DNA of 64,000 nt from Candidatus Poriferihabitaceae bacterium (GCA_965262585.1 OZ253546.1:1930547-1994546), one strand, 5' to 3'; shown: positions 24,572-34,334, numbered from the stretch's first letter. Numbers and translations: made by a program. The notes: generated from the letters alone by a model not told the origin.

Positions 24572-25652
24572 GGCGCAAAAAATGACCAAGGGAAGGCGCT
24601 GGTTCTACCTCCTGTTCCCCCTGCTGTGCTTCTTCGTATTCGCCTGGCCGCCATACCGGCTGGCCGGCTGGTATTGGCCGGAGGGCTCGGCTATCGGTCT
24701 GGAATACGCGGTGCTGATCTGGCTATTCGCCACCACCGCCCTGTGGTATTCGTTCCGCAGCCCGAACATGCGGATACGCTATGTCATGGTGCATTGGATG
24801 GGCGTCAGTTTCATTCTCTTCGTCTTGACGCTGGCATACGAGGTGATGCGCGTGGTTGCGCCGGTGGACGACCACGCTGCGGTGCCGTGGATTCTCGGCA
24901 TCGCCACGCTGTTGGTGGTACTGGCGGTGATCGCATCCCACTTTCTGAGCGTTAAATACCTCGAATTCGGTTCCGAAAAAATTACCCGGCCACACCGCAT
25001 CGTGCAGATCAGCGACGTCCACATCGGCTCGCGACAGGGCGGCTACCTGACCCGGATCGTCAACCGCATCAATCTACTGAAGCCGGATGTGGTGGTCATC
25101 ACCGGCGATCTGGTGGACTCCGCAGCGGTTGGCCACGATGAACTCAAATGCCTCAAGCGGCTGTCCGCCCGGACTTTGTTTAGCATCGGCAATCATGAAC
25201 GCTATGCCGATCTCGACAAGGTGCTCGCCCTGCTGACCGAACTGGGAGTCGAGTCGCTGCGCCAGCGTCGGGTCATCGCCGGTGAACTGCAGGTTATCGG
25301 CATTGATGATGCCGACGAGCATGATCAGGTGGCTTGCATGCTGCCGACCATTCAAGATCGCAGCGATCATTACACCGTGCTTTTGTATCACCGGCCGCTG
25401 GGCTGGGAGGCGGCGGTGGAGCACGGTGTGGATTTAATGCTCAGCGGGCACACCCACAACGGGCAGATTTTTCCGTTCAACCTGCTGGTGAAGCGCCAAT
25501 TCCGCCGCATCAGCGGGTTATACAGCGAAGGCGGCGGGCATCTCTATGTTTCGCCGGGCACCGGCACCTGGGGGCCGCTCATGCGCCTCGGTTCGTTTAA
25601 TGAAATTACTTGCATCGATGTAATGCCAATCACATCGCCGACATCGTTATAG
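24570..25652 (+). CDS. Membrane-anchored metallophosphoesterase (YaeI-like)
   Basis: N-terminal TM segments, then the calcineurin-like motifs SDVHIG, GDLVD, GNHE and GHTHNG. An alternative start is ATG 24582. Confidence 0.8.
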   Translation: MAQKMTKGRRWFYLLFPLLCFFVFAWPPYRLAGWYWPEGSAIGLEYAVLIWLFATTALWYSFRSPNMRIRYVMVHWMGVSFILFVLTLAYEVMRVVAPVDDHAAVPWILGIATLLVVLAVIASHFLSVKYLEFGSEKITRPHRIVQISDVHIGSRQGGYLTRIVNRINLLKPDVVVITGDLVDSAAVGHDELKCLKRLSARTLFSIGNHERYADLDKVLALLTELGVESLRQRRVIAGELQVIGIDDADEHDQVACMLPTIQDRSDHYTVLLYHRPLGWEAAVEHGVDLMLSGHTHNGQIFPFNLLVKRQFRRISGLYSEGGGHLYVSPGTGTWGPLMRLGSFNEITCIDVMPITSPTSL

Positions 25653-25676
25653 GCACCGTTATAGCCGACGCCACGC

Positions 25677-26321
25677 TCACTCCGGCAACGGAATTTCCTT
25701 TGTCGTGGCGTTGGGTGCGGCAGGCACTTGGTATCCCCGAAGCACCGCCGGGCGGGCGGCGATGGCACGATACCAGCGTTCGACATTGGGGTATTCCGCA
25801 AAATCGATTCCCTGCCATTCGAAGCGCGAAATCCACGGCCACGAAGCGATGTCGGCGACCGAGTATTCCCCGGCCAGATATTCACGATGCGCCAGTCGCT
25901 CATCCATGACATCGTATAAACGTTGCGCTTCAATGGCGTAGCGTTTTTCCGCGTAGTCGCTGGTCCCCCGGTTGTAGTGAAGGAAGTGGTGGGCTTGGCC
26001 GAGCATTGGGCCGAGCCCGCCCATTTGAAACATCAGCCATTCCATCGTCCGCCAGCGAGCGGCCTCGTCCGTGGGCAGGAAGCGACCGCTTTTTTCGGCG
26101 AGATACAGCAAAATGGCGCCGGACTCCATCATCGTCCTGCCGTTGTCGTGGTCGACGATGGCGGGAATTTTGTTGTTGGGACTGATTTTCAGAAAATCGT
26201 CATGGAACTGCTGGTCGTTGCCGATGTCGATCGCATGCACCGTATACGGCAGTTCGATTTCCTCCAGCATAATGGAAACCTTTCGCCCGTTGGGCGTGCT
26301 CCAAGTGTACAGATCAATCAA
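25677..26321 (-). CDS. yfcG: Nu-class glutathione S-transferase (YfcG-like)
   Basis: Near-colinear with E. coli YfcG as I remember it: IDLY..TPNG.K, ISPNNKIPAIVDH, ESGAILLYLAEK and GGLGPMLGQ.HHF. TTG start at 26321 with GGAGG upstream. Confidence 0.8.
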   Translation of the reverse strand: MIDLYTWSTPNGRKVSIMLEEIELPYTVHAIDIGNDQQFHDDFLKISPNNKIPAIVDHDNGRTMMESGAILLYLAEKSGRFLPTDEAARWRTMEWLMFQMGGLGPMLGQAHHFLHYNRGTSDYAEKRYAIEAQRLYDVMDERLAHREYLAGEYSVADIASWPWISRFEWQGIDFAEYPNVERWYRAIAARPAVLRGYQVPAAPNATTKEIPLPE

Positions 26322-26516
26322 CGGTGGCCTCCGGGGATGGCGAATTTTTCGGGGGAGTGCGGGAACGCAAGGGCTGATTGTGGCACAAGCCGCACAGTGT
26401 CGGCGCAAATTTCGCATAAATTTCTAGGCAAGCGGCCTGACTTTATGCGGCGGTTTCGTGGTATCTTATGGTATCTTTATATCCCATATTTCGGCAACCA
26501 CCCAGCAGGCTGCGCT

Positions 26517-27038
26517 ATGAATAACACCACAATACTCCAAACCGCCAAAGCGGTCGTCAGTTGGGCGATCACGCTCTGGATATGCAAGGTATTCCTCACA
26601 TCCTTGCCCTATAAATTCTCCGGCCACCCGGACACCCAACACATCTTCGGCACCATCGGCGAATGGCTGAAAGGAATTCTGGGGCAGGGCCTCGGCGCAT
26701 GGTTCATCGATTCCGGCGCCTATCTGGTGGGCAGTTTCGAACTCCTGACCTCGCTGGTGCTGCTGTTGCCGGCGTTGCTTTGGGTCATCGCCAAAGTCGG
26801 CTTAGGCGACTTGGGTGCGCGGGCACGCTTCCACGGAGTCGGCGGACTCATGGCCGCGGGGGTGATGTCCGGCGCGGTGTTTTTCCATTTATTCACTCCG
26901 CTGGGAGTGGAGGTTTTGCACCAGGGCAAGAGCGACGGCGGTTCGCTGTTTTACGCCGCGGTTTCCATCCTGGTGCTTGGCCTCGCGCTATTCGTGATCA
27001 ACGTCGGGGACTTAATGAAAACAAGGGGCGAACGATAA
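26517..27038 (+). CDS. Small integral membrane protein (DoxX-like?)
   Basis: 173 aa with four hydrophobic segments. Start at ATG 26517; the longer track ORF (25923) runs antisense to the GST gene. Confidence 0.5.
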   Translation: MNNTTILQTAKAVVSWAITLWICKVFLTSLPYKFSGHPDTQHIFGTIGEWLKGILGQGLGAWFIDSGAYLVGSFELLTSLVLLLPALLWVIAKVGLGDLGARARFHGVGGLMAAGVMSGAVFFHLFTPLGVEVLHQGKSDGGSLFYAAVSILVLGLALFVINVGDLMKTRGER

Positions 27039-27111
27039 GCATTTTTCTCGCCCCAGACGCCCCACAATTCCCGGTGTCGGCCATTGGCCACAGTTTCTAT
27101 GAAGGTGGCCG

Positions 27112-27945
27112 ATGAAGGTGACCAGCGTAATGGTGATCGTCTATATTTCCTGCTGTATTCGCATTGCCACCCGGCCGTGTAAATACTTTCAGTTAAACGC
27201 GCCGTTTTTCGACACCGAGAAGGGGATTTTCTCCAAGATCGACATCGACCGCCTGATACCATCGGCCTGGCGGCTGGCTCAGGCGTACGATGATGGCGCA
27301 CGAATGCCGGATCGTTATCCGGTGTTCGTCAAACCGGAATGGAGTCAGAACGCCAAAGGCGTATACCGCGCCGCCGATGCCGTCGAATTGCGCCGTATCC
27401 GCGAAAAAATCAGCGGGTCGCGGGTCAGATATATGCTTCAGGAAGGCGCCGTGGAGGCCAACGAATACGAGATTTTTTCCATTAGTCACCACCACGATCC
27501 GAAGCGATGGGCGGTGCTCACCATAACCCAAGCGTGCAACTCCGCCGAACTCCACCCGGTCAACAGCATCTATAATCCCAACACCCACTACCGCGAAATC
27601 ACCGCTTCATTTTCCGCCGCGCAACTCGTTCAACTGTGGGCGCTGGTGTGCCGCATCGGTCGATTTGGAATATCCAGAGTCAGCGTGCGCGCCGATTCCA
27701 TCGACGACCTGTTGCGCGGGAAGTTTCATGTCATCGAAGTCAATTTATTTCTGCCCATGCCCATTCACCTGCTCGACCGGCGCAACTCGCGCATGGATAT
27801 TCTGCGTTTCGTGGCATCCGGCATGATGCGCCTCGCCCTGGCCACCAAATACCGCGACAAAACTCCCGACAAACCGATATTCATCAAGAGCATGTTATAC
27901 AACCGCAGCAGCGGCTTGCTCAATTTCCTGAGGGCGCAATTTTGA
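27112..27945 (+). CDS. Putative ATP-grasp fold protein
   Basis: YPVFVKPEWSQNAKGVY resembles the ATP-grasp Lys loop, and FHVIEVNLFLPMP resembles the E-x-N Mg site. There is no other recognisable family signature. Confidence 0.5.
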   Translation: MKVTSVMVIVYISCCIRIATRPCKYFQLNAPFFDTEKGIFSKIDIDRLIPSAWRLAQAYDDGARMPDRYPVFVKPEWSQNAKGVYRAADAVELRRIREKISGSRVRYMLQEGAVEANEYEIFSISHHHDPKRWAVLTITQACNSAELHPVNSIYNPNTHYREITASFSAAQLVQLWALVCRIGRFGISRVSVRADSIDDLLRGKFHVIEVNLFLPMPIHLLDRRNSRMDILRFVASGMMRLALATKYRDKTPDKPIFIKSMLYNRSSGLLNFLRAQF

Positions 27946-28850
27946 GAAAACTGAATGCGTGGCTTTACCACTTGCTCAGCGCGCGTTACATGCACGGCTG
28001 CACCAGTTACAACACCCTGCTGGTCCGCAAGAATTGCCGCTCAAAAGCGCAAGGGCGGGAAGTGTTTGCGCGCAACGACGTCCCCCACGCTCGCGGCATG
28101 ATTTTTTTGTTGCCGTGGAAGGTGCGCGAGTTTGTCCGTGAGCACGGCTTTCCGGTGGTGGTAAAACCCAATGTAAGCGGCTATTCCCGTGGCAGTTATT
28201 TTCCCATCAACAATTTCCGCGAATTGTGGCGTGGGATATTGCTAGCCAAGGTGTGGTGGCCGACCACGGTAATCGAGCAATACCTCGCCGGCGCCAACTA
28301 CCGCGTGCTGACCACCGGCGAACACTTGGTTTCGGTGATCCGGCGTTATCCGCCATTCGTCATCGGCAACGGCAGCGACAGCATCAGCGCCCTCATCGAT
28401 GAAGAAAACCTCGTGCGCGCGCGCATGAAACTGCACCCGACCATTTATCCCATCCGCAAGAGTGAACAGGTGATCGCCCACCTGAAAAAACAAAACATGG
28501 GATTGGATTCGGTGCCGGAAAAAGATTGCCAAGTGGAACTGTTCCACCGCGTTGCGTTGGCTCCGGGGGGCGTGGTGGAGATCATCGACCAGCGCACCAT
28601 CCCGCAAGATAACGTCGAATTATTCACCGCCGTGGTGAAAATGTTCGACGCCAACCTACTCGGCATCGATGTTATTTTTGAGAAGGGAATCGAGACTAGT
28701 TACAAAGAGCAGAAATGCATATTCATCGAGGTCAACTCCCGGCCCTACGCCGAAATGCACCACTTCCCGCGCTACGGAAAAGTCGAAGATTTATCCGTCC
28801 ACTACGCCGAACTTGAGCAACTCGACATTCCCGACAAGGATATTTTTTAG
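27942..28850 (+). CDS. Stand-alone ATP-grasp ligase resembling the cyanophycin-synthetase (CphA) ATP-grasp domain
   Basis: FPVVVKPNVSGYSRGSYF, YRVLTTGEHLVSVIRRYPPFVIGNGSDSISALIDEEN and IFIEVNSRPY are colinear with the CphA/RimK-type core. The TTG start overlaps the upstream stop (TTTGA). An alternative start is ATG 27990. Confidence 0.7.
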   Translation: MRKLNAWLYHLLSARYMHGCTSYNTLLVRKNCRSKAQGREVFARNDVPHARGMIFLLPWKVREFVREHGFPVVVKPNVSGYSRGSYFPINNFRELWRGILLAKVWWPTTVIEQYLAGANYRVLTTGEHLVSVIRRYPPFVIGNGSDSISALIDEENLVRARMKLHPTIYPIRKSEQVIAHLKKQNMGLDSVPEKDCQVELFHRVALAPGGVVEIIDQRTIPQDNVELFTAVVKMFDANLLGIDVIFEKGIETSYKEQKCIFIEVNSRPYAEMHHFPRYGKVEDLSVHYAELEQLDIPDKDIF

Positions 28851-28860
28851 GACGTTTTTG

Positions 28861-30027
28861 ATGGGACACCACTCGCGAATTTTTTATCTATACCTGGGTC
28901 TGCACTCGCTGCTCATCGGGATTTTCCCGTTTTTTATTCCGGTGTATCTGTGGAAGGAAGGCTACAACCTCGGCGAGTTGTCGATTTTTATCGCCATCGC
29001 CGGGTTCGGTTTTTGTCTGGGGCTGTGGGTCTGGGACCGGTTGCGGCTGAAAATCGACCTGAGTTCGATGATTGTGCTATCGCTGCTTCTGGAGATGCTA
29101 CTGCTGCTCAACGTGTACATCCTCAACATGGACATGACGCTGTCGGTGCTGGTGTCGCTGGGGATTTGTTACGGCGTTTACAACTGTTTTTTCTGGACCA
29201 CCCAGCGCGCGCTGTTTTTTGAAATCATCGAGCCGGCCAATTCCGGCCGCAAATACGGCAACTTCCAAATATTCGTCGGCGCGCTCCTCCAAATCGGCAT
29301 CCTGCTCGGCGGGTTGCTGCTGGAGCGCGCAGGCTTCGTCTATATCGTGGTGCTGTCGGCGGTCGCCGCAGTCGCCGGATTCATGGTTTTGCTGGTCAAC
29401 AAACCCGAATACCCCGACACCCTCAACCATACCGAAGCCCTGGGCTTGCGCGAGGTACTCAAATTCACCGATAAAGACGCCTCGCGACCGATTTTTATCC
29501 TCGACGGCATTTATCTTTTTCTGGAAAGTTTTTTCTGGTTACTTTCGCTATTTCTCATCGCCCATGAAAGTTTCACCCGACTGGGCATCATGATAATGGC
29601 GCTGGCGGTGATTTTCGGCATCCTGTTTTACCTGCTCAAAAACACCATCGACCGGCTCGGCAGAAAACCGATGTATCAGTTAGCGGTGGTGCTATACGCC
29701 CTCTCGTGGGTATTGCGCGCACTGACCGATGACAAAGCATCGCTGGAATTGCTGTTCATCCTGCTGGTGGCGATCACCTTCAACACCTCGATATTCCGAT
29801 TGGTAATGAACAAACGTTTTTATGACATCGCAAAACTCACCCTCTCACACCGCTATCTGGTACTCAAAAGTTACTATTCCCAAGCCGCCATTTTTGTCCT
29901 ATTCCTGCTATTCGGCTGGGCGGTATTACACTTTGAATACGATGCCACAGTGCTAACCCCAATCTACTGGGCCGCCGCCCTGGTTGCACCGGTGTACTTA
30001 ATCTACGGCGCAAAACGCTATCGTTGA
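28861..30027 (+). CDS. MFS-type permease
   Basis: 388 aa and very hydrophobic, with about 10-12 TM segments. ATG 28861 lies 10 nt after the upstream stop. Confidence 0.65.
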   Translation: MGHHSRIFYLYLGLHSLLIGIFPFFIPVYLWKEGYNLGELSIFIAIAGFGFCLGLWVWDRLRLKIDLSSMIVLSLLLEMLLLLNVYILNMDMTLSVLVSLGICYGVYNCFFWTTQRALFFEIIEPANSGRKYGNFQIFVGALLQIGILLGGLLLERAGFVYIVVLSAVAAVAGFMVLLVNKPEYPDTLNHTEALGLREVLKFTDKDASRPIFILDGIYLFLESFFWLLSLFLIAHESFTRLGIMIMALAVIFGILFYLLKNTIDRLGRKPMYQLAVVLYALSWVLRALTDDKASLELLFILLVAITFNTSIFRLVMNKRFYDIAKLTLSHRYLVLKSYYSQAAIFVLFLLFGWAVLHFEYDATVLTPIYWAAALVAPVYLIYGAKRYR

Positions 30028-30044
30028 ATTGCCCCCGGCGGGAC

Positions 30045-31436
30045 TCAATGCGCCAACGCCAAATCGGCGGCAATGGCGAAACCGATTCCTTCGGTGCTTT
30101 GTTCGGCGATTTTGAAGGTCATAATGCCGACCAAATTTCCCTCGTTATCGAATAATCCGCCCCCCGAAGAACCCGGCGAAATGGCCGCATCGGTTTGGAT
30201 ATAGCGCGTGCCGTCAAGCGTCCGCAGTTGCGAAACAAGCCCGGACGAAAGCGATAAATCGTACCCTTGCGGCGCCCCCAGACCATACACATCCTCGCCC
30301 ACCGTGAGGGTGTCATAACGCCGCACCGCCGCCGGCACACCCCACAAACCGTCCACATCCAACAAGCAAAAATCTTTCGCCACATCAGCACGGCGAATAC
30401 TGGCGGAAAAACTGCGCTCGGTATCCGCCCGGCGACCAACCGATTTATACACGGCAATCTCGCCGCCCTCATCAACCACATGGCAATTAGTCGCCACGAC
30501 ATTCGGGCGAATGATGACACCGCTGCCCTGCCCATCGCCATTGATCACAACCACCACCGAACGCCAAGCATTCTCAAACACTTTCGCGGCAATATTCACC
30601 GCTTTGGGCGCAACGGCAATGGCGATTTGCTCGCCGATGGTGGGCTTTTCCGTGGCTTGTTCCACACGATCATCAATCGCTTTCAACCGCCGCGCCGCCT
30701 CTTTCTGCGCGGCACGGATTTCGCTTTGTGATAGATACTCTCGCCAATTCTTCTTCCGCAAACTATCAGCGGCGAGTTCCTCGCCATTTGCTTTGGCGAT
30801 GGAATACCAAATATAGGCTTCATACTCATCCGTGATAACGCCTTCGCCGTTCCAGTATGAAACACCCAAATTATATTGCGCGCTTGCATATCCTTGTTCG
30901 GCCGATTTTCGAAACCACCGCACCGCCTCGCGCTGGTCTTTGACGATGCCTTTGCCGTTCGAGCATGCCAAGCCGAAATTAAGTTGCGCACCCGCTTGCC
31001 CTTGCTCCGCTGCTTTTCGAAACCACTGCACCGCTTTGTGCCGGTCTTTGGCGATTCCTTCGCCGGTCCAGTATGCGATGCCCAAATTATATTGCGCGTC
31101 AGCCAGATATTGTTCCGCTGATTTTTGATACCACTGCACCGCTTCGTGTTGGTCTTTAGCGATTCCTTCGCCGTTCCAGTATGCAACGCCCAAATTATTT
31201 TGCGCTTTCGCAAGACCCTGTTCTGCTGCTTTTCGAAACCACTGAATCGCTTCGTGCTGGTTTTCGGCTACGCCTTCGCCGAACCAGTATGCGGCACCCA
31301 AATTAAATTGCGCATTCGCATCCCCCCGCTCCGCTTTCGCACGCAATTCCTTGCTTGAAGTTTGCGCGCCCGAGAAGGGTGCCATCATCCGCGCCAAAGC
31401 GGCCACGAGCAACCCACGAAGTATTTGCATTTTCAT
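30045..31436 (-). CDS. Secreted Sel1-repeat protein fused to a C-terminal trypsin-like (S1/Trypsin_2) serine protease domain
   Basis: Signal peptide, then about 5 Sel1 repeats (GEGIAKD..EAV.W..KAAEQG...AQ.NLG.AY). Next comes the module EYEAYIWYSIAKANG...SEIRAAQKEAARRL. The protease domain has a His (TNCHVV), Asp (DFCLLDV), Ser (GSSGGG) triad. Confidence 0.8.
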   Translation of the reverse strand: MKMQILRGLLVAALARMMAPFSGAQTSSKELRAKAERGDANAQFNLGAAYWFGEGVAENQHEAIQWFRKAAEQGLAKAQNNLGVAYWNGEGIAKDQHEAVQWYQKSAEQYLADAQYNLGIAYWTGEGIAKDRHKAVQWFRKAAEQGQAGAQLNFGLACSNGKGIVKDQREAVRWFRKSAEQGYASAQYNLGVSYWNGEGVITDEYEAYIWYSIAKANGEELAADSLRKKNWREYLSQSEIRAAQKEAARRLKAIDDRVEQATEKPTIGEQIAIAVAPKAVNIAAKVFENAWRSVVVVINGDGQGSGVIIRPNVVATNCHVVDEGGEIAVYKSVGRRADTERSFSASIRRADVAKDFCLLDVDGLWGVPAAVRRYDTLTVGEDVYGLGAPQGYDLSLSSGLVSQLRTLDGTRYIQTDAAISPGSSGGGLFDNEGNLVGIMTFKIAEQSTEGIGFAIAADLALAH

Positions 31437-31460
31437 TTTTCTTCCAAGTCCCGAAAAAAA

Positions 31461-31539
31461 TTATCCCACAAATATCAAAATCCAGAGCAATACGATTTGG
31501 ATGCTGTTGACTAGTCGCCAGCCAGTCGGCGTTCTCGTG
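31461..31539 (-). repeat. Relic copy of the 3' end of the DUF4149-like gene (original at 33927..34060)
   Basis: TTATCCCACAAATATCAAAATCC[A/C]GAGCAATACGATTTGGATGCTGTTGAC is almost identical to 33927..33977, followed by homology to 34028..34055 after a roughly 50-bp deletion. Confidence 0.75.
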
Positions 31540-31579
31540 GGGTGCGGCGGCGATGGCAATATGCACATCGCCGACGGGT

Positions 31580-32911
31580 TTATTCTACGCCCTTGTCAAT
31601 CTCATCCAACCGCCGCGCCGCCTCTTTCAGCGCAGCACGGATTTCGCTTTGCGATAGACGCTCTCGCCAATTCTTACGTAAGACATCAGAGGCGCGTTCA
31701 TCGCCACTTGCCTTGGCGATGGAAAACCAGATATAGGCTTCATATTTATCTGTGATAACGCCTTCGCCGGTCTCGTATGCAACACCCAGATTATTTTGTG
31801 CGCTTGCATGTCCTTGTTCCGCCGATTTTCGATACCACCGCACCGCCTCGCGCTGGTCTTTGGCCGTGCCTTCGCCGAAGTCATATGCAACACCCAAATT
31901 ATATTGTGCGTTCACATGTCCTTGTTCCGCTGCTTTTCGAAACCACAGCACCGCCTTGCGCTGGTCTTTGGCAATGCCATAGCCGAACCAGTATGCGTGG
32001 CCCAAAGAAAATTGCGCGTCCGCATACCCCTGTTCCGCTGCTTTTCGAAACCACCGCACCGCCTCGCGCTGGTCTTTGTCGATGCCTTCGCCGCGCCGGT
32101 ATGCGTTGCCCAAAGAAAATTGCGCAACCGCAAGCCCTTGTTCCGCTGCTTTTCGATACCATCGTACTGCCTCGCGATGGTCTTCGGCGATGCCTTCGCC
32201 GTGATCATATGCTGAGCCCAAAATAAATTGCGCTCCCGCAATCCCTTGTTCCGCCGATTTTCGATACCACCGCACCGCCTCACGTTCGTCTTTAGCGGTG
32301 CCTTCGCCGAACCGGTATGCGAAGCCCAAAACAAATTGCGCGTTTGCATATCCTTGTTCCGCCGCTTTTCGATACCACCGCACCGCCTCACGCTGGTCTT
32401 TGTCGATGCCTTCGCCGTGATCATATGCTGAGCCCAAAATAAATTGCGCTCCCGCAATCCCTTGTTCCGCTGCTTTTCGATACCACCGCACCGCCTCACG
32501 CTGGTCTTTGTCGATGCCTTCGCCGTTCCAGTATGCGTTGCCCAAGTTATGTTGCGCTCCCGCATTCCCTTGTTCCGCCGCTTTTCGAAACCACCGCACT
32601 GCCTCACGCTGGTCTTTGGCGATGCCTTCGCCGGTCGAGTATGCGTAGCCCAAATCAAATTGCGCTTTCGCAAGCCCTTGTTCCGCTGCTTTTCGAAGCC
32701 ACCGCACCGCTTCGCGTTGATCTTTGCCGATCTTCTCTCCGCCGGACCAGTATATAGTGCCCATAGCATATTGTGCACTCGCACTCCCTCGCTCCGCCAA
32801 TGCACGAAGTTCATCAATTATTGAATTTTGCGCAACCGAAACAGGCACCATCATCGCCATCAAAACGACCACAACTAACATCCGAAACATCTTCATTTCA
32901 TTTTTCTCCAA
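31580..32911 (-). CDS. Secreted Sel1-repeat protein (about 10 tandem 36-aa repeats)
   Basis: Signal peptide, then a regular 108-bp / 36-aa periodicity (GEGI.KDQREAVRWYRKAAEQG.A.AQF.LG.AY). Shares the C-terminal module KYEAYIWFSIAKASG...SEIRAALKEAARRL. Confidence 0.85.
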   Translation of the reverse strand: MEKNEMKMFRMLVVVVLMAMMVPVSVAQNSIIDELRALAERGSASAQYAMGTIYWSGGEKIGKDQREAVRWLRKAAEQGLAKAQFDLGYAYSTGEGIAKDQREAVRWFRKAAEQGNAGAQHNLGNAYWNGEGIDKDQREAVRWYRKAAEQGIAGAQFILGSAYDHGEGIDKDQREAVRWYRKAAEQGYANAQFVLGFAYRFGEGTAKDEREAVRWYRKSAEQGIAGAQFILGSAYDHGEGIAEDHREAVRWYRKAAEQGLAVAQFSLGNAYRRGEGIDKDQREAVRWFRKAAEQGYADAQFSLGHAYWFGYGIAKDQRKAVLWFRKAAEQGHVNAQYNLGVAYDFGEGTAKDQREAVRWYRKSAEQGHASAQNNLGVAYETGEGVITDKYEAYIWFSIAKASGDERASDVLRKNWRERLSQSEIRAALKEAARRLDEIDKGVE

Positions 32912-32924
32912 GTTCTAAAAAAAC

Positions 32925-32976
32925 CTACTCCACAAATATCAAAATCCCGAGCAATACGATTTGTTTGTGGAGTTTA
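32925..32976 (-). repeat. Second relic copy of the DUF4149-like gene 3' end
   Basis: CTCCACAAATATCAAAATCCCGAGCAATACGATTTGTTTGTGGAGTTTA matches 33931..33970 joined to 33988..34002, with an internal deletion between two GATTTG sites. Confidence 0.7.
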
Positions 32977-33004
32977 GGGTCACCAGTGGCGAGTTTTCCG
33001 TGGC

Positions 33005-33898
33005 TTACTCGACGCGCTTGCCAATTTCCTCCAACCGCCGCGCCGCTTCTTTCTGCGCGGCGCGGATTTTACTTTGCGATAGATACTTTTGCCAATTAGC
33101 CTCACGCAATTTATCAGCGGCGGGTTCAATGCCGTTTGCCTTGGCGATGGAAAACCAGATATAGGCTTCATACTCATCCGCGATAGTGCCTGCGCCGTTC
33201 CAATATAAAGCACCCAAATTAAATTGCGCAGCAGCATGCCCTTGTTCCGCCGCTTTTCGAAACCACCGCCTCGCCTCGGGCTGGTTTTTGGTGATGCCTT
33301 CGCCGGTTAAGTATGCGGCACCCAAATTAAATTGCGCGCCTGTATGTCCTTGTTCTGCTGCTTTTCGATACCATCGCACCGCCTCACGCTGGTTTTTAGT
33401 GATGCCTTCGCCGTTCGAGTATGCATTGGCCAAATTAAATTGCGCTTCCGCAAGCCCTTGCTCGGCTGATTTTCGAAACCATCGCACTGCCTCGCGTTGG
33501 TCTTCGGCGATGCCTTCGCCTAAGTTATATGCGATGCCCAAATTATATTGCGCTTTCATATTCCCTTGTTCGGCTACTTTTCGAAACCATCGCACCGCCT
33601 CGTGCGGGTTTTTGGCAATGCCTTCGCCGCGACCATATGCGATGCCCAAAGTAAGTTGCGCATCCGTATGCCCTTGTTCTGCCGCTTTTCGGAACCACCG
33701 CACCGACTCGCGCTGGTTTTTGGCAACGCCTTCGCCGTTTAAGTATGCAGCACCCAAATAAAATTGCGCTTCTGCATCCCCCCGCTCTGCTTCCGCACGC
33801 AGAGCCTCGATTTCCTCGCTTGAAGTTTGCGTGTCCGAGAAGGGCGCAATTATCCGCTTCAAAGCAGTAGCCACCACACGAGATATCGGTCTTTTCAT
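33005..33898 (-). CDS. Sel1-repeat protein (about 6 repeats)
   Basis: Same repeat consensus and the same C-terminal module (EYEAYIWFSIAKANG...SKIRAAQKEAARRLEEIGKRVE). Confidence 0.85.
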   Translation of the reverse strand: MKRPISRVVATALKRIIAPFSDTQTSSEEIEALRAEAERGDAEAQFYLGAAYLNGEGVAKNQRESVRWFRKAAEQGHTDAQLTLGIAYGRGEGIAKNPHEAVRWFRKVAEQGNMKAQYNLGIAYNLGEGIAEDQREAVRWFRKSAEQGLAEAQFNLANAYSNGEGITKNQREAVRWYRKAAEQGHTGAQFNLGAAYLTGEGITKNQPEARRWFRKAAEQGHAAAQFNLGALYWNGAGTIADEYEAYIWFSIAKANGIEPAADKLREANWQKYLSQSKIRAAQKEAARRLEEIGKRVE

Positions 33899-33926
33899 TT
33901 TTTGTTATTCCAAGTCTCGAAACAAG

Positions 33927-34334
33927 TTATCCCACAAATATCAAAATCCCGAGCAATACGATTTGGATGCTGTTGACGAGGACGCTTTGTTTGTGGAGTT
34001 TATCGAACTGGGCTTTGTCTTGGGGGGAGTCGCTGGCCAGCCAGCGTTCTCGTGCGCCGGTTATTTTGGGGTTGAGTATCTGCCGCGCATACAGGTAGCC
34101 GCACAGCACGAGGCCCATGAGCATGAACGCCGGCGAGCGGTTGTATAGGGCGACCAGCATGCCGATGCCGGACAGGGTGATGCCCCACAGGTAGAATCGC
34201 GGGAACAGGTCGTTCAAATACCGCCCGGCGTTTTCGGCGTCGAGTAGTTTATGCACGGACGGCGCCACCAGCACGGCAAAAAACACCATGGAGCCGAAGA
34301 GTAAGGCCGAGATGAGGGAGAGTGGAGTGATCAT
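33927..34334 (-). CDS. Small 4-TM membrane protein (DUF4149/TMEM205-like)
   Basis: 135 aa with four hydrophobic segments. Its 3' end is the source of the relic copies at 31461 and 32925. Confidence 0.55.
   Translation of the reverse strand: MITPLSLISALLFGSMVFFAVLVAPSVHKLLDAENAGRYLNDLFPRFYLWGITLSGIGMLVALYNRSPAFMLMGLVLCGYLYARQILNPKITGARERWLASDSPQDKAQFDKLHKQSVLVNSIQIVLLGILIFVG

What the first reader, a model, noticed from the sequence alone, without database searches (positions are those of the whole stretch)
27112..30027. Orphan operon of two different ATP-grasp ligases plus an MFS permease: candidate small peptide or amide-product pathway
Three tightly packed genes are involved: a stop/start overlap (TTTGA) and then a 10-nt gap. 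The second encodes a stand-alone domain colinear with the ATP-grasp core of cyanophycin synthetase and RimK-type ligases (VVVKPNVSGYSRG..., PPFVIGNGSDSISALIDEEN, IFIEVNSRPY). The first has only the minimal ATP-grasp hallmarks (PVFVKPEWSQNAKGVY, HVIEVNLFLPMP). The third is a 388-aa MFS-like permease. Two sequential ATP-dependent carboxylate-amine ligases with a dedicated exporter or importer is the logic of dipeptide, osmolyte or poly-amino-acid pathways. The set lacks the GNAT, amidotransferase or Mur-ligase partners of the known NAGGN, cyanophycin or poly-gamma-glutamate systems. The product is therefore not predictable from known clusters.
Basis: inference. Interest (0 to 1): 0.58.

Follow-up and report, generated by a model that had tools for sequence, protein, structure and literature searches.

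The report
Conserved two-ligase plus transporter cassette
Two different ATP-driven amide-bond enzymes, a membrane transporter and a small four-helix membrane protein form a tightly conserved but unstudied gene set in scattered marine bacteria; it most likely makes and exports an unknown small peptide-like compound and is mislabelled "cyanophycin synthetase" in databases.

Summary

- **Gene 1:** a predicted ATP-grasp fold, Ddl-like but without the N-domain, in a small family that has no Pfam model.
- **Gene 2:** homologous only to the G (ATP-grasp) core of cyanophycin synthetase. It keeps the catalytic residues but lacks the N and M domains and the Asp-recognition Asn.
- **Gene 3:** an MFS transporter.

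The triad is conserved as a unit. Gene 2 follows gene 1 in 80 of 80 fetched loci. A transporter follows in 71 of 72 loci with room (69 MFS, 2 EamA). Natural gene1–gene2 fusion proteins exist.

The unit is larger than reported. A DoxX-like 4-helix membrane gene (26517–27038) sits directly upstream, and its strict orthologues occur only in cassette-bearing genomes. All 10 cassette-bearing genomes in a 400-genome sample also encode a secreted YHS one-Cys (seleno)protein, against 14% overall.

The product is unknown. A small, exported amide or peptide tied to periplasmic redox or metal chemistry is the best reading. Cyanophycin, RimK, GshF, NAGGN and aminolipid-tailoring readings failed their tests.

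Other agents in this scan had already found the same cassette in other genomes. I found no paper describing it.

The parts
26517..27038 (+). c3: 173-aa, 4-helix DoxX-like membrane protein, a fourth member of the cassette. Invariant polar residues are Y32 K33 H37 D39 T40 H124 E132 H135 S139 D140.
   Evidence: An alignment of 18 orthologues has 64% mean column identity. The gene lies directly upstream of gene 1 in most of the 58 loci that carry it within 7 kb. Strict orthologues (E<=1e-38) occur in 7 of 401 sampled Gammaproteobacteria, all of them cassette-bearing. The AF2 model has pLDDT 93 and is all-helical. No Pfam family matches at E<0.01. Atlas features point to 'putative DoxX family' at 0.91. 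The best, and weak, fold match is NACHO/TMEM35A.
27112..27945 (+). g1: 277-aa divergent ATP-grasp ligase, Ddl-like, without a pre-ATP-grasp N-domain. It has a short hydrophobic N-terminal helix, KPEW (K74) and the E209-x-N211 Mg motif.
   Evidence: Only sub-threshold Pfam hits were found (Dala_Dala_lig_C, E 0.021). The AF2 model has pLDDT 83 and pTM 0.82. Foldseek top hits are D-Ala-D-Ala ligases, VanA and synapsin (E 1e-8, prob 1.00, about 225 columns). A profile search of PDB sequences returns only ATP-grasp enzymes. There are 56 invariant columns across 23 homologues. The family is small: 243 representatives at E<=1e-3 among 1.84 billion proteins.
27942..28850 (+). g2: 302-aa stand-alone ATP-grasp ligase homologous to the G-domain core of cyanophycin synthetase and the GshF ATP-grasp module. 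The catalytic set is K75, R121, R135, D243, E263, N265.
   Evidence: TIGR02068 positions 209-462 match at E 1e-40 but with 139 bits against a cutoff of 850. The profile against PDB hits CphA1 7wac residues 219-474 at E 2e-33, and also CphA2 and GshF. Residues were mapped using PMC9427784. All 20 aligned orthologues are 302 aa with no gaps. There are 1039 homologues, which NCBI names 'cyanophycin synthetase' or 'hypothetical'.
28861..30027 (+). g3: 388-aa MFS transporter, with two motif-A-like loops (WDRLRLK and DRLGRK).
   Evidence: Pfam MFS_1 matches at E 1e-14 with 54.5 bits, above the 33.4 cutoff. The Atlas nearest clusters are all MFS_1. The gene follows g2 in 69 of 72 loci with room, and an EamA/DMT transporter replaces it in L073 and L077.

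Best explanation
This is a four-gene cassette: a DoxX-like membrane protein, ATP-grasp ligase g1, ATP-grasp ligase g2 and an MFS transporter. The two ligases work as one two-module machine. Each activates a carboxylate as an acyl-phosphate and joins it to an amine, so two amide bonds are made in succession. The result would be a small product, probably a di- or tripeptide-like and probably acidic. The MFS then exports it; in two loci an EamA transporter takes that role. In the periplasm or membrane the product is functionally connected with the DoxX-like protein and with a secreted YHS-domain protein that carries one conserved Cys (Sec in some relatives). That connection points to a redox or metal-handling role.

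Shown here: gene structure, folds and families, retention of catalytic residues, conservation of the unit, fusion of g1 with g2, transporter swapping, and co-occurrence with c3 and YHS.

Inferred only: sequential action, direction of transport, and chemistry of the product.
For: - **Unit conservation:** g2 follows g1 in 80 of 80 loci. MFS follows in 69 of 72 loci with room, and EamA in 2 more. Divergence of the three proteins is correlated (Spearman 0.84-0.89).
- **Fusions:** single proteins P0281 (581 aa) and P0287 (576 aa) carry g1 followed by g2, with 47-50% identity to g2.
- **g1:** it has an ATP-grasp fold with invariant K74, R193, E209 and N211.
- **g2:** it keeps the counterparts of CphA1 K261, R309, R323, D431, E450 and N452.
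- **Acidic substrate:** the pocket-facing invariant residues of g2 are Arg-rich (R83, R121, R135, R203, R267, R277), which would suit anionic substrates.
- **Export:** the swap for an EamA transporter (TIGR00950 'carboxylate/amino acid/amine transporter') favours a small soluble exported molecule.
- **c3 co-occurrence:** strict c3 orthologues occur only in cassette-bearing genomes, 7 of 10 against 0 of 391.
- **YHS co-occurrence:** the YHS (seleno)protein family NF041384 is in 10 of 10 cassette-bearing genomes against 46 of 390 others. It lies within 7 kb in 31 of 80 loci.
- **Redox neighbours:** a VTT-fused CxxxxC pyridine-nucleotide disulfide reductase sits between c3 and g1 in 4 loci, and a stand-alone glutathione-reductase-like one sits downstream in a fifth. 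A DinB-like gene occurs in 8 loci and a TANGO2-like gene in 4. A 1-Cys peroxiredoxin lies beside the unlinked YHS gene in the window's genome and beside the unlinked c3 gene in G291.
Against: - No substrate, product or activity has been observed.
- MFS proteins can import as well as export.
- Both ligases lack the N-terminal domain that helps bind the substrate in classical ATP-grasp enzymes, so their substrates could be unusual.
- In this genome the YHS, DinB-like and TANGO2-like genes are unlinked from the cassette.
- c3 was not found in 3 of 10 cassette-bearing genomes.
- One locus (L020) has no adjacent transporter.
- g1 has a hydrophobic N-terminal helix and a distant relative fused to a DedA/VTT membrane domain (P0391). 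That leaves a membrane-bound (lipid) substrate open.
- Co-occurrence counts come from related genomes and are not independent.
Confidence: 0.5

Rival explanations
1. Low-molecular-weight thiol variant. This is a sharper form of the best explanation. The ligases build or extend a cysteine-containing peptide, glutathione-like or built on glutathione or gamma-Glu-Cys. The peptide is exported as a periplasmic redox buffer for the YHS Cys/Sec protein and the DoxX-like protein, and a dedicated disulfide reductase recycles it.
For: g2 carries Tyr/Phe at the P-loop position, as reported for GshF, not the His267 of CphA1. GshF's ATP-grasp module is among its closest solved relatives. A CxxxxC disulfide reductase is inserted in the operon in 4 loci, and a glutathione-reductase-like gene lies beside a fifth. 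DinB-fold genes follow the cassette in 8 loci. A 1-Cys peroxiredoxin lies beside the unlinked YHS gene in the window's genome and beside the unlinked c3 gene in G291. The YHS family has Sec forms (GxU) according to PMC13188914.
Against: No cysteine-specific feature can be read from the sequences. The genome already has canonical gshA and gshB. The redox neighbours are limited to certain lineages. c3 has no conserved cysteine.
Confidence: 0.2
2. Membrane-lipid head-group tailoring. The ligases add amino acids to the free carboxylate of a membrane lipid (an aminolipid or similar), and the MFS flips the lipid. Earlier notes of this scan proposed this for the related YHS-DoxX-DinB-TANGO2-DedA::ATP-grasp cassettes.
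For: g1 has a short hydrophobic N-terminal helix. A distant g1 relative is fused to a DedA/VTT membrane domain (P0391). Colwellia-type loci carry the same YHS, DoxX, DinB and TANGO2 neighbours. c3 is a membrane protein.
Against: The OlsB/OlsF/GlsB-type N-acyltransferase domain (PF13444) was found in only 3 of 10 cassette-bearing genomes. It was not found in the window's single-contig, 97.6%-complete genome. No acyltransferase recurs among the 80 loci. The N-terminal helix of g1 is about 15 residues and carries charged residues in many homologues. An EamA amino-acid/metabolite-type transporter can replace the MFS.
Confidence: 0.12
3. Protein or peptide tailing. As RimK does on ribosomal protein S6, the ligases add residues to the C-terminus or a side chain of a protein or a ribosomal peptide.
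For: The CphA G domain and RimK extend peptide C-termini. g2 has weak RimK-family similarity (PF08443 17.9 bits, TIGR00768 22.5 bits).
Against: All RimK scores are below their cutoffs. There is no conserved small ORF and no room for one in the tightly packed loci. No cassette protein has a conserved acidic C-terminus. A dedicated small-molecule transporter is an odd partner for a protein modifier.
Confidence: 0.08
4. Uptake and conjugation or salvage. The MFS imports an external compound, and the two ligases then amidate it or incorporate it.
For: The direction of MFS transport cannot be read from sequence. Many hosts are symbionts of sponges, Osedax worms or bryozoans that live on host-derived compounds.
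Against: EamA/DMT proteins, which substitute for the MFS in 2 loci, are mostly exporters; that is general knowledge and was not tested here. No catabolic or hydrolytic partner is conserved.
Confidence: 0.08
5. A cyanophycin-like polyamide synthetase, as the database name suggests.
For: g2 is homologous to the CphA1/CphA2 G domain (E 1e-40 and 2e-33). NCBI names many orthologues 'cyanophycin synthetase'.
Against: g2 scores 139 bits against the 850-bit cutoff of TIGR02068. It has no N domain and no Mur-ligase M domain. Asn394, which binds the Asp beta-carboxylate, is Ala/Ser here. The P-loop His267 is Tyr/Phe. Glu215 has no aligned counterpart. An MFS cannot move a polymer, which is my inference.
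Confidence: 0.02

Closest known systems
Cyanophycin synthetase CphA1/CphA2, G (ATP-grasp) domain (PDB 7wac, 7lg5, 7ta5, 8fxh)
   Same: g2 aligns over CphA1 residues 219-474. It keeps the ATP-binding Lys, the acyl-phosphate and oxyanion Arg309, Arg323 and the Mg ligands Asp431, Glu450 and Asn452. The expected chemistry is the same: ATP-dependent addition of an amine to a backbone carboxylate.
   Different: g2 is only 302 aa. It has no N domain, no M (MurE-like) domain and no aligned Glu215. Asn394 is replaced by Ala/Ser and His267 by Tyr/Phe. It scores far below the family cutoff. It is always paired with a second, unrelated ATP-grasp and a transporter.
GshF (bifunctional glutamate-cysteine ligase / glutathione synthetase), ATP-grasp module (PDB 3ln6, 3ln7)
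   Same: It is the next-closest solved relative of g2 (E 1e-22). It has the same Tyr/Phe type of P-loop residue (per PMC9427784). It makes the second amide bond of a tripeptide.
   Different: There is no glutamate-cysteine ligase domain here. NF002688 scores 85.5 bits against a cutoff of 425. The genome has separate gshA and gshB genes.
D-alanine-D-alanine ligase / VanA family
   Same: These are the best fold matches for g1 (Foldseek E 1e-8) and its only sequence-level matches. The KP Lys and the E-x-N Mg motif are shared.
   Different: g1 lacks the roughly 100-residue N-terminal domain. It is about 15% identical, all scores are below family cutoffs, and it has its own invariant N-terminal PCKYFQLN segment.
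L-amino-acid-ligase plus exporter pairs, such as BacD/BacE of bacilysin (recalled from memory, not tested)
   Same: The logic is the same: an ATP-grasp ligase makes a small peptide, and a co-encoded MFS protein exports it.
   Different: This cassette has two ligases of different ATP-grasp clades and no precursor-tailoring genes. It also has DoxX-like and YHS partners that those clusters lack.
YHS-DoxX-DinB-TANGO2-(DedA::)ATP-grasp cassettes noted elsewhere in this scan (e1-5198989, e1-4348622 and others; undescribed in the literature)
   Same: The YHS, DoxX-like, DinB-like and TANGO2-like neighbours are shared in Colwellia-type loci. A VTT/DedA::ATP-grasp protein is a distant g1 relative (P0391, E 7e-7).
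   Different: This cassette has a second, CphA-G-type ligase and a dedicated MFS or EamA transporter. It shows no link to aminolipid synthase genes.

Membership tests
ATP-grasp superfamily (g1) | ATP-grasp fold (central and C-terminal domains) | tested here: met
   The AF2 model has pLDDT 83. More than 400 Foldseek PDB matches reach E<=1e-3. The top ones are Ddl, VanA and synapsin, at prob 1.00 and TMq about 0.5.
ATP-grasp superfamily (g1) | Conserved phosphate-binding Lys and E-x-N Mg2+ ligands | tested here: met
   K74 (VKPEW), E209 and N211 (IEVN) are invariant in 23 homologues. K74 aligns to the VanA KP strand. The Pfam Dala_Dala_lig_C alignment spans residues 68-211.
ATP-grasp superfamily (g1) | N-terminal pre-ATP-grasp (substrate) domain | tested here: not met
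   Only about 60 residues precede the KP strand. Foldseek alignments cover about 225 of about 320 Ddl columns. This domain is typical of the superfamily but not obligatory.
ATP-grasp superfamily (g1, g2) | ATP-dependent carboxylate-amine ligase activity | not testable with these tools
   This needs an enzyme assay.
Cyanophycin synthetase CphA1 (g2) | N + G + M three-domain architecture, and the TIGR02068 cutoff | tested here: not met
   Only model positions 209-462 of 862 match, with 139 bits against a cutoff of 850. The protein is 302 aa, whereas CphA1 is about 880 aa.
Cyanophycin synthetase CphA1 (g2) | Residues for Asp and cyanophycin recognition (Asn394, Glu215, P-loop His267) | tested here: not met
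   Asn394 aligns to A205 (Ala/Ser) and His267 to Y81 (Tyr/Phe). Glu215 lies outside the alignable region.
Cyanophycin synthetase CphA1 (g2) | Catalytic core of the G domain (Lys261, Arg309, Asp431, Glu450) | tested here: met
   K75, R121, D243 and E263 are invariant in 20 orthologues.
RimK (ribosomal protein S6 glutamylation) | Score above the family threshold (TIGR00768 or PF08443) | tested here: not met
   TIGR00768 scores 22.5 bits against 143.4, and PF08443 scores 17.9 against 21.
NAGGN synthetase Ngg | GNAT + ATP-grasp fusion, TIGR03103 cutoff, AsnO partner | tested here: not met
   TIGR03103 scores 64.5 bits against 569, and only the ATP-grasp part matches. No GNAT or amidotransferase gene is conserved beside the cassette.
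GshF / GshB glutathione synthesis | Family threshold and GCL partner domain | tested here: not met
   NF002688 scores 85.5 bits against 425. Canonical gshA and gshB lie elsewhere in the genome.
Major facilitator superfamily (g3) | Pfam MFS_1 gathering threshold | tested here: met
   It scores 54.5 bits against 33.4.
DoxX family (c3) | Match to PF07681/PF13564 or a DoxX-type fold | tested here: inconclusive
   There is no Pfam hit at E<0.01. Atlas features score 0.91 to 'putative DoxX family' clusters. Foldseek finds nothing below E 0.1. The best TMt (0.51) is NACHO/TMEM35A, which I recall from memory to be a DoxX-family protein.
Aminolipid (ornithine/glycine lipid) tailoring cassette | Co-occurrence with an OlsB/OlsF/GlsB N-acyltransferase (PF13444) | tested here: not met
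   PF13444 was found in 3 of 10 cassette-bearing genomes and not in the window's genome.

The most novel reading that the evidence does not exclude
The cassette makes a previously unknown low-molecular-weight peptide cofactor, possibly a thiol. The cofactor is exported to the periplasm of marine bacteria. There it works with a one-Cys/Sec YHS protein and a DoxX-like membrane protein as a new envelope redox or metal-buffering system. In some lineages a dedicated membrane-anchored disulfide reductase recycles it.
Probability: 0.2. Interest if true: 0.8.

Novelty: new variant of a known kind. Interest (0 to 1): 0.55.

Why it matters
More than a thousand database proteins of the g2 type are called "cyanophycin synthetase" or "hypothetical". 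The g1 family has no model at all.

The two always travel together with a transporter, are sometimes fused, and are tied to DoxX-like and YHS Cys/Sec proteins. That defines a testable, undescribed small-molecule pathway. It is found in sponge, Osedax and bryozoan symbionts and in sea-ice and deep-sea genera (Colwellia, Psychromonas, Polaribacter).

Cultured hosts exist, so the product can be sought directly. Identifying it would correct a widespread misannotation. It could also give a first function to the YHS (seleno)protein family and to this DoxX-like family.

Tried and rejected
- **The look-up of encoding contigs:** I took gene contexts from the search for related loci and the genome search instead.
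- **Literature:** searches for ATP-grasp with cyanophycin synthetase and Colwellia, with YHS domain, with DoxX, and for amidoligases found nothing on this cassette.
- **Riboswitch or RNA motif:** no Rfam match at E<=1 in 25500-30400.
- **Promoter and terminator scan:** no more sites than in shuffled sequence.
- **c3 structure:** the c3 profile against PDB sequences gave no meaningful hit, and the fold search found nothing below E 0.1.
- **Transporter subfamily:** the Atlas search gave only generic MFS_1.
- **Context of the fused g1-g2 proteins:** a metagenome scan with P0281 found no locus. I did not use the permitted second scan.
- **Cyanophycin, RimK, NAGGN and GshF membership:** rejected on cutoffs and residues.
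- **Aminolipid reading, a lead from earlier scan notes:** rejected for this cassette on the absence of PF13444.
- **Sec forms of the neighbouring YHS genes:** none found. All intact copies near the cassette read GGYC.
- **g1 as a transmembrane protein:** not supported. The N-terminal helix is short and often carries charged residues.
Full report
**Observation**

- g1 is at 27112-27945 (277 aa).
- g2 is at 27942-28850 (302 aa), with a TTG start that overlaps the g1 stop in TTTGA.
- g3 is at 28861-30027 (388 aa), after a 10-nt gap.

All quoted motifs are present. The TTG start of g2 is supported by a gapless 302-residue alignment of 20 orthologues that all begin at this point.

**What the three proteins are**

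*g1.* Sequence searches give only sub-threshold ATP-grasp matches (Dala_Dala_lig_C at E 0.021). Every PDB profile hit is a D-Ala-D-Ala ligase, VanA or an L-amino-acid ligase.
- An AlphaFold2 model built on 23 homologues is confident (pLDDT 83, pTM 0.82).
- Foldseek places it among D-Ala-D-Ala ligases, VanA and synapsin (E 1e-8, prob 1.00).
- Only about 60 residues precede the KP strand, so the classical N-terminal domain is missing.
- K74, R193, E209 and N211 are invariant, which is what an active enzyme would need.

*g2.* It is homologous to the G-domain core of cyanophycin synthetase (TIGR02068 positions 209-462 at E 1e-40; PDB 7wac residues 219-474 at E 2e-33). It is also related to CphA2 and to the ATP-grasp module of GshF. 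I mapped residues using the TeCphA1 study (PMC9427784).
- Kept: the counterparts of Lys261, Arg309, Arg323, Asp431, Glu450 and Asn452, which are K75, R121, R135, D243, E263 and N265.
- Changed: Asn394, which holds the beta-carboxylate of the incoming aspartate, is Ala/Ser.
- Changed: the P-loop His267 is Tyr/Phe, the state that paper reports for GshF.
- Not alignable: Glu215.
- Absent: the N and M domains.
- All named-family scores are far below cutoff: CphA 139 of 850 bits, GshF 85 of 425, Ngg 64 of 569 and RimK 22 of 143.

The two ligases are unrelated beyond the KP strand (hhalign probability 2%).

*g3.* It passes the MFS_1 threshold.

**Conservation of the unit**

A scan of one genome per species returned 80 loci that encode a g1 relative.
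- g2 follows g1 in 80 of 80 loci.
- Among the 72 loci with at least 1.25 kb after g2, 69 have the MFS next. Two (L073, L077) have an EamA/DMT transporter in its place, and one (L020) has no transporter there.
- Identities of the three proteins to the window copies rise and fall together (Spearman 0.84-0.89).

The hosts fall into three groups:
- Sponge-associated Arenicellales, namely Ca. Poriferihabitaceae and Ca. Spongiihabitans. The window's genome is closest to the former, at 78-87% identity.
- Other Gammaproteobacteria: Colwellia, Psychromonas, Osedax symbionts, Nitrincola, Bermanella, Hahellaceae and Granulosicoccaceae.
- Flavobacteria: Polaribacter and Urechidicola.

In an even sample of 400 Gammaproteobacteria the g1 family occurs in only 10 genomes, the window's own among them, from 8 families. 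A profile search of 1.84 billion representative proteins finds only 243 relatives at E<=1e-3.

**Fusion proteins**

Two of those representatives, P0281 (581 aa) and P0287 (576 aa), are g1 followed by g2 in a single chain, with 47-50% identity to g2. P0262 is a third protein that begins the same way. Such fusions are strong evidence that the two ligases act together.

**The unit is larger than reported**

I clustered the flanking ORFs of all 80 loci. A 4-helix membrane protein of about 165 aa (c3; window 26517-27038, 73 nt upstream of g1) is present in 58 loci. It usually lies directly upstream of g1. In the Flavobacteria-type loci it lies downstream on the other strand.
- c3 is highly conserved, with invariant His, Asp, Glu, Tyr and Lys residues.
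- It models at pLDDT 93.
- It looks DoxX-like by language-model features, but it has no Pfam match and no significant fold match.
- Strict c3 orthologues (E<=1e-38) were found in 7 of the 401 sampled genomes, and all 7 carry the cassette. In two of them c3 is unlinked from the cassette.

A secreted 150-aa YHS-domain protein of the NCBIfam family "YHS domain-containing (seleno)protein" (NF041384, 164 bits against a cutoff of 70, motif GGYC) lies within 7 kb in 31 loci.
- In the class-wide sample the family occurs in 56 of 400 genomes. One of the 56 is G039, an unpublished genome that contributes only a weak hit.
- It occurs in all 10 cassette-bearing genomes. These kin are not independent, so this is a strong association, not a formal probability.
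- The window's genome has two such genes, both outside the window.
- YHS plus DoxX-like pairs also exist without the ligases, for example in G253.

Lineage-limited neighbours share a redox theme:
- A DinB-like gene follows the cassette in 8 loci, and a TANGO2-like gene in 4.
- A VTT/DedA-fused pyridine-nucleotide disulfide oxidoreductase with an intact CxxxxC motif sits between c3 and g1 in 4 Oceanospirillales loci. A glutathione-reductase-like gene lies beside a fifth locus.
- A 1-Cys peroxiredoxin lies next to the second YHS gene of this genome and next to the unlinked c3 gene of G291.
- The window's genome also encodes unlinked DinB-like and TANGO2-like genes, and canonical gshA and gshB.

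**Mechanism**

My preferred reading is this. g1 and g2 form a two-module ATP-grasp machine, and each makes one amide bond through an acyl-phosphate. The product would be a small, probably anionic di- or tripeptide-like compound. The invariant Arg-rich pocket of g2 suggests the negative charge. The co-encoded transporter exports the product. Replacement of the MFS by an EamA protein of the carboxylate/amino-acid/amine type favours a small soluble exported molecule. The obligate genomic tie to c3 and to the periplasmic one-Cys YHS protein suggests the product acts in the envelope, in redox or metal chemistry.

Sequential action, export and the product's chemistry are all inferred. None has been shown.

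**Rivals**

- *Thiol peptide.* This is a sharper version of the reading above and is attractive but unproven.
- *Lipid head-group tailoring.* Earlier notes of this scan suggested it for related YHS-DoxX-DinB-TANGO2-DedA::ATP-grasp cassettes. Some support exists, because a DedA/VTT::ATP-grasp protein is a distant g1 relative (P0391). However, the OlsB/OlsF/GlsB acyltransferase domain occurs in only 3 of 10 cassette-bearing genomes and not in this closed genome. The N-terminal helix of g1 is short and often carries charged residues.
- *Protein tailing, import-and-conjugation, and cyanophycin-like polymer synthesis.* These are less likely, for the reasons given under each rival.

**Novelty and earlier work**

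I found no paper describing the cassette. NCBI labels g2 orthologues "cyanophycin synthetase" and g1 orthologues "hypothetical".

Other agents in this scan had already met the same cassette in other genomes and reached similar conclusions (e1-4220477, e1-4496427, e1-5179393). I repeated their main claims on this window and its relatives. New here:
- the g1-g2 fusions;
- the class-wide co-occurrence counts;
- the residue mapping onto TeCphA1;
- the negative test of the aminolipid link.

Noticed in passing
P0281, P0287 (representative-library proteins): The natural g1-g2 fusion proteins carry Trp at many positions where Gly is invariant (4 and 9 of 14 checked). They have 3.3-4.3% W but only 1.6-2.6% G. 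This is the pattern expected if UGA means Gly (table 25, Gracilibacteria/Absconditabacteria) and the genes were translated with UGA read as Trp. If so, the cassette also occurs, in fused form, in reduced-genome candidate-phyla bacteria.
   Followed up: partly
L054 (CAXMOZ010000205.1, labelled uncultured Acidimicrobiia): The gene order around the cassette is the same as in the Polaribacter and Urechidicola loci L055 and L061 (PntA/PntB, HlyIII-like, and so on). The contig is probably a mis-binned Flavobacteriaceae contig and not evidence for the cassette in Actinomycetota. Its YHS gene is interrupted by a stop.
   Followed up: partly
L066:4339-6504, L069:1077-3242, L072:4570-6735, L075:4575-6740: A 721-aa fusion of a VTT/DedA membrane domain with a class-I pyridine-nucleotide disulfide oxidoreductase (GDCLNYGC) is inserted between the DoxX-like gene and g1 in Nitrincola, Osedax-symbiont and Oceanospirillaceae loci.
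   Followed up: partly
L082 (G000:C1:1719691-1723047) and L084 (G291:C18): A 1-Cys peroxiredoxin gene lies next to the second YHS gene of the window's genome. Another lies next to the unlinked DoxX-like c3 gene of another cassette-bearing genome.
   Followed up: no
L083:2878-5118 (G335:C36): A c3-like DoxX-type domain forms the N-terminus of a 746-aa protein that also has FG-GAP repeats and an UnbV/ASPIC domain.
   Followed up: no
window 30045-33898: Homologues of the three Sel1-repeat genes downstream of the cassette were found in only one of the 80 related loci (L002). The upstream neighbours (pyruvate kinase and a metallophosphoesterase) are shared with about 30 loci. G+C falls from about 0.60 to about 0.53 across 27000-34000. 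The cassette therefore looks older at this site than the Sel1/IS30 block.
   Followed up: partly
L086:4078-5097 (G253:C15): A YHS gene plus a DoxX-like gene stand alone behind an AraC-type regulator and before a PhoD phosphatase, with no ligases. The YHS/DoxX pair is therefore a module of its own, to which the ligase-transporter set is added in some lineages.
   Followed up: partly
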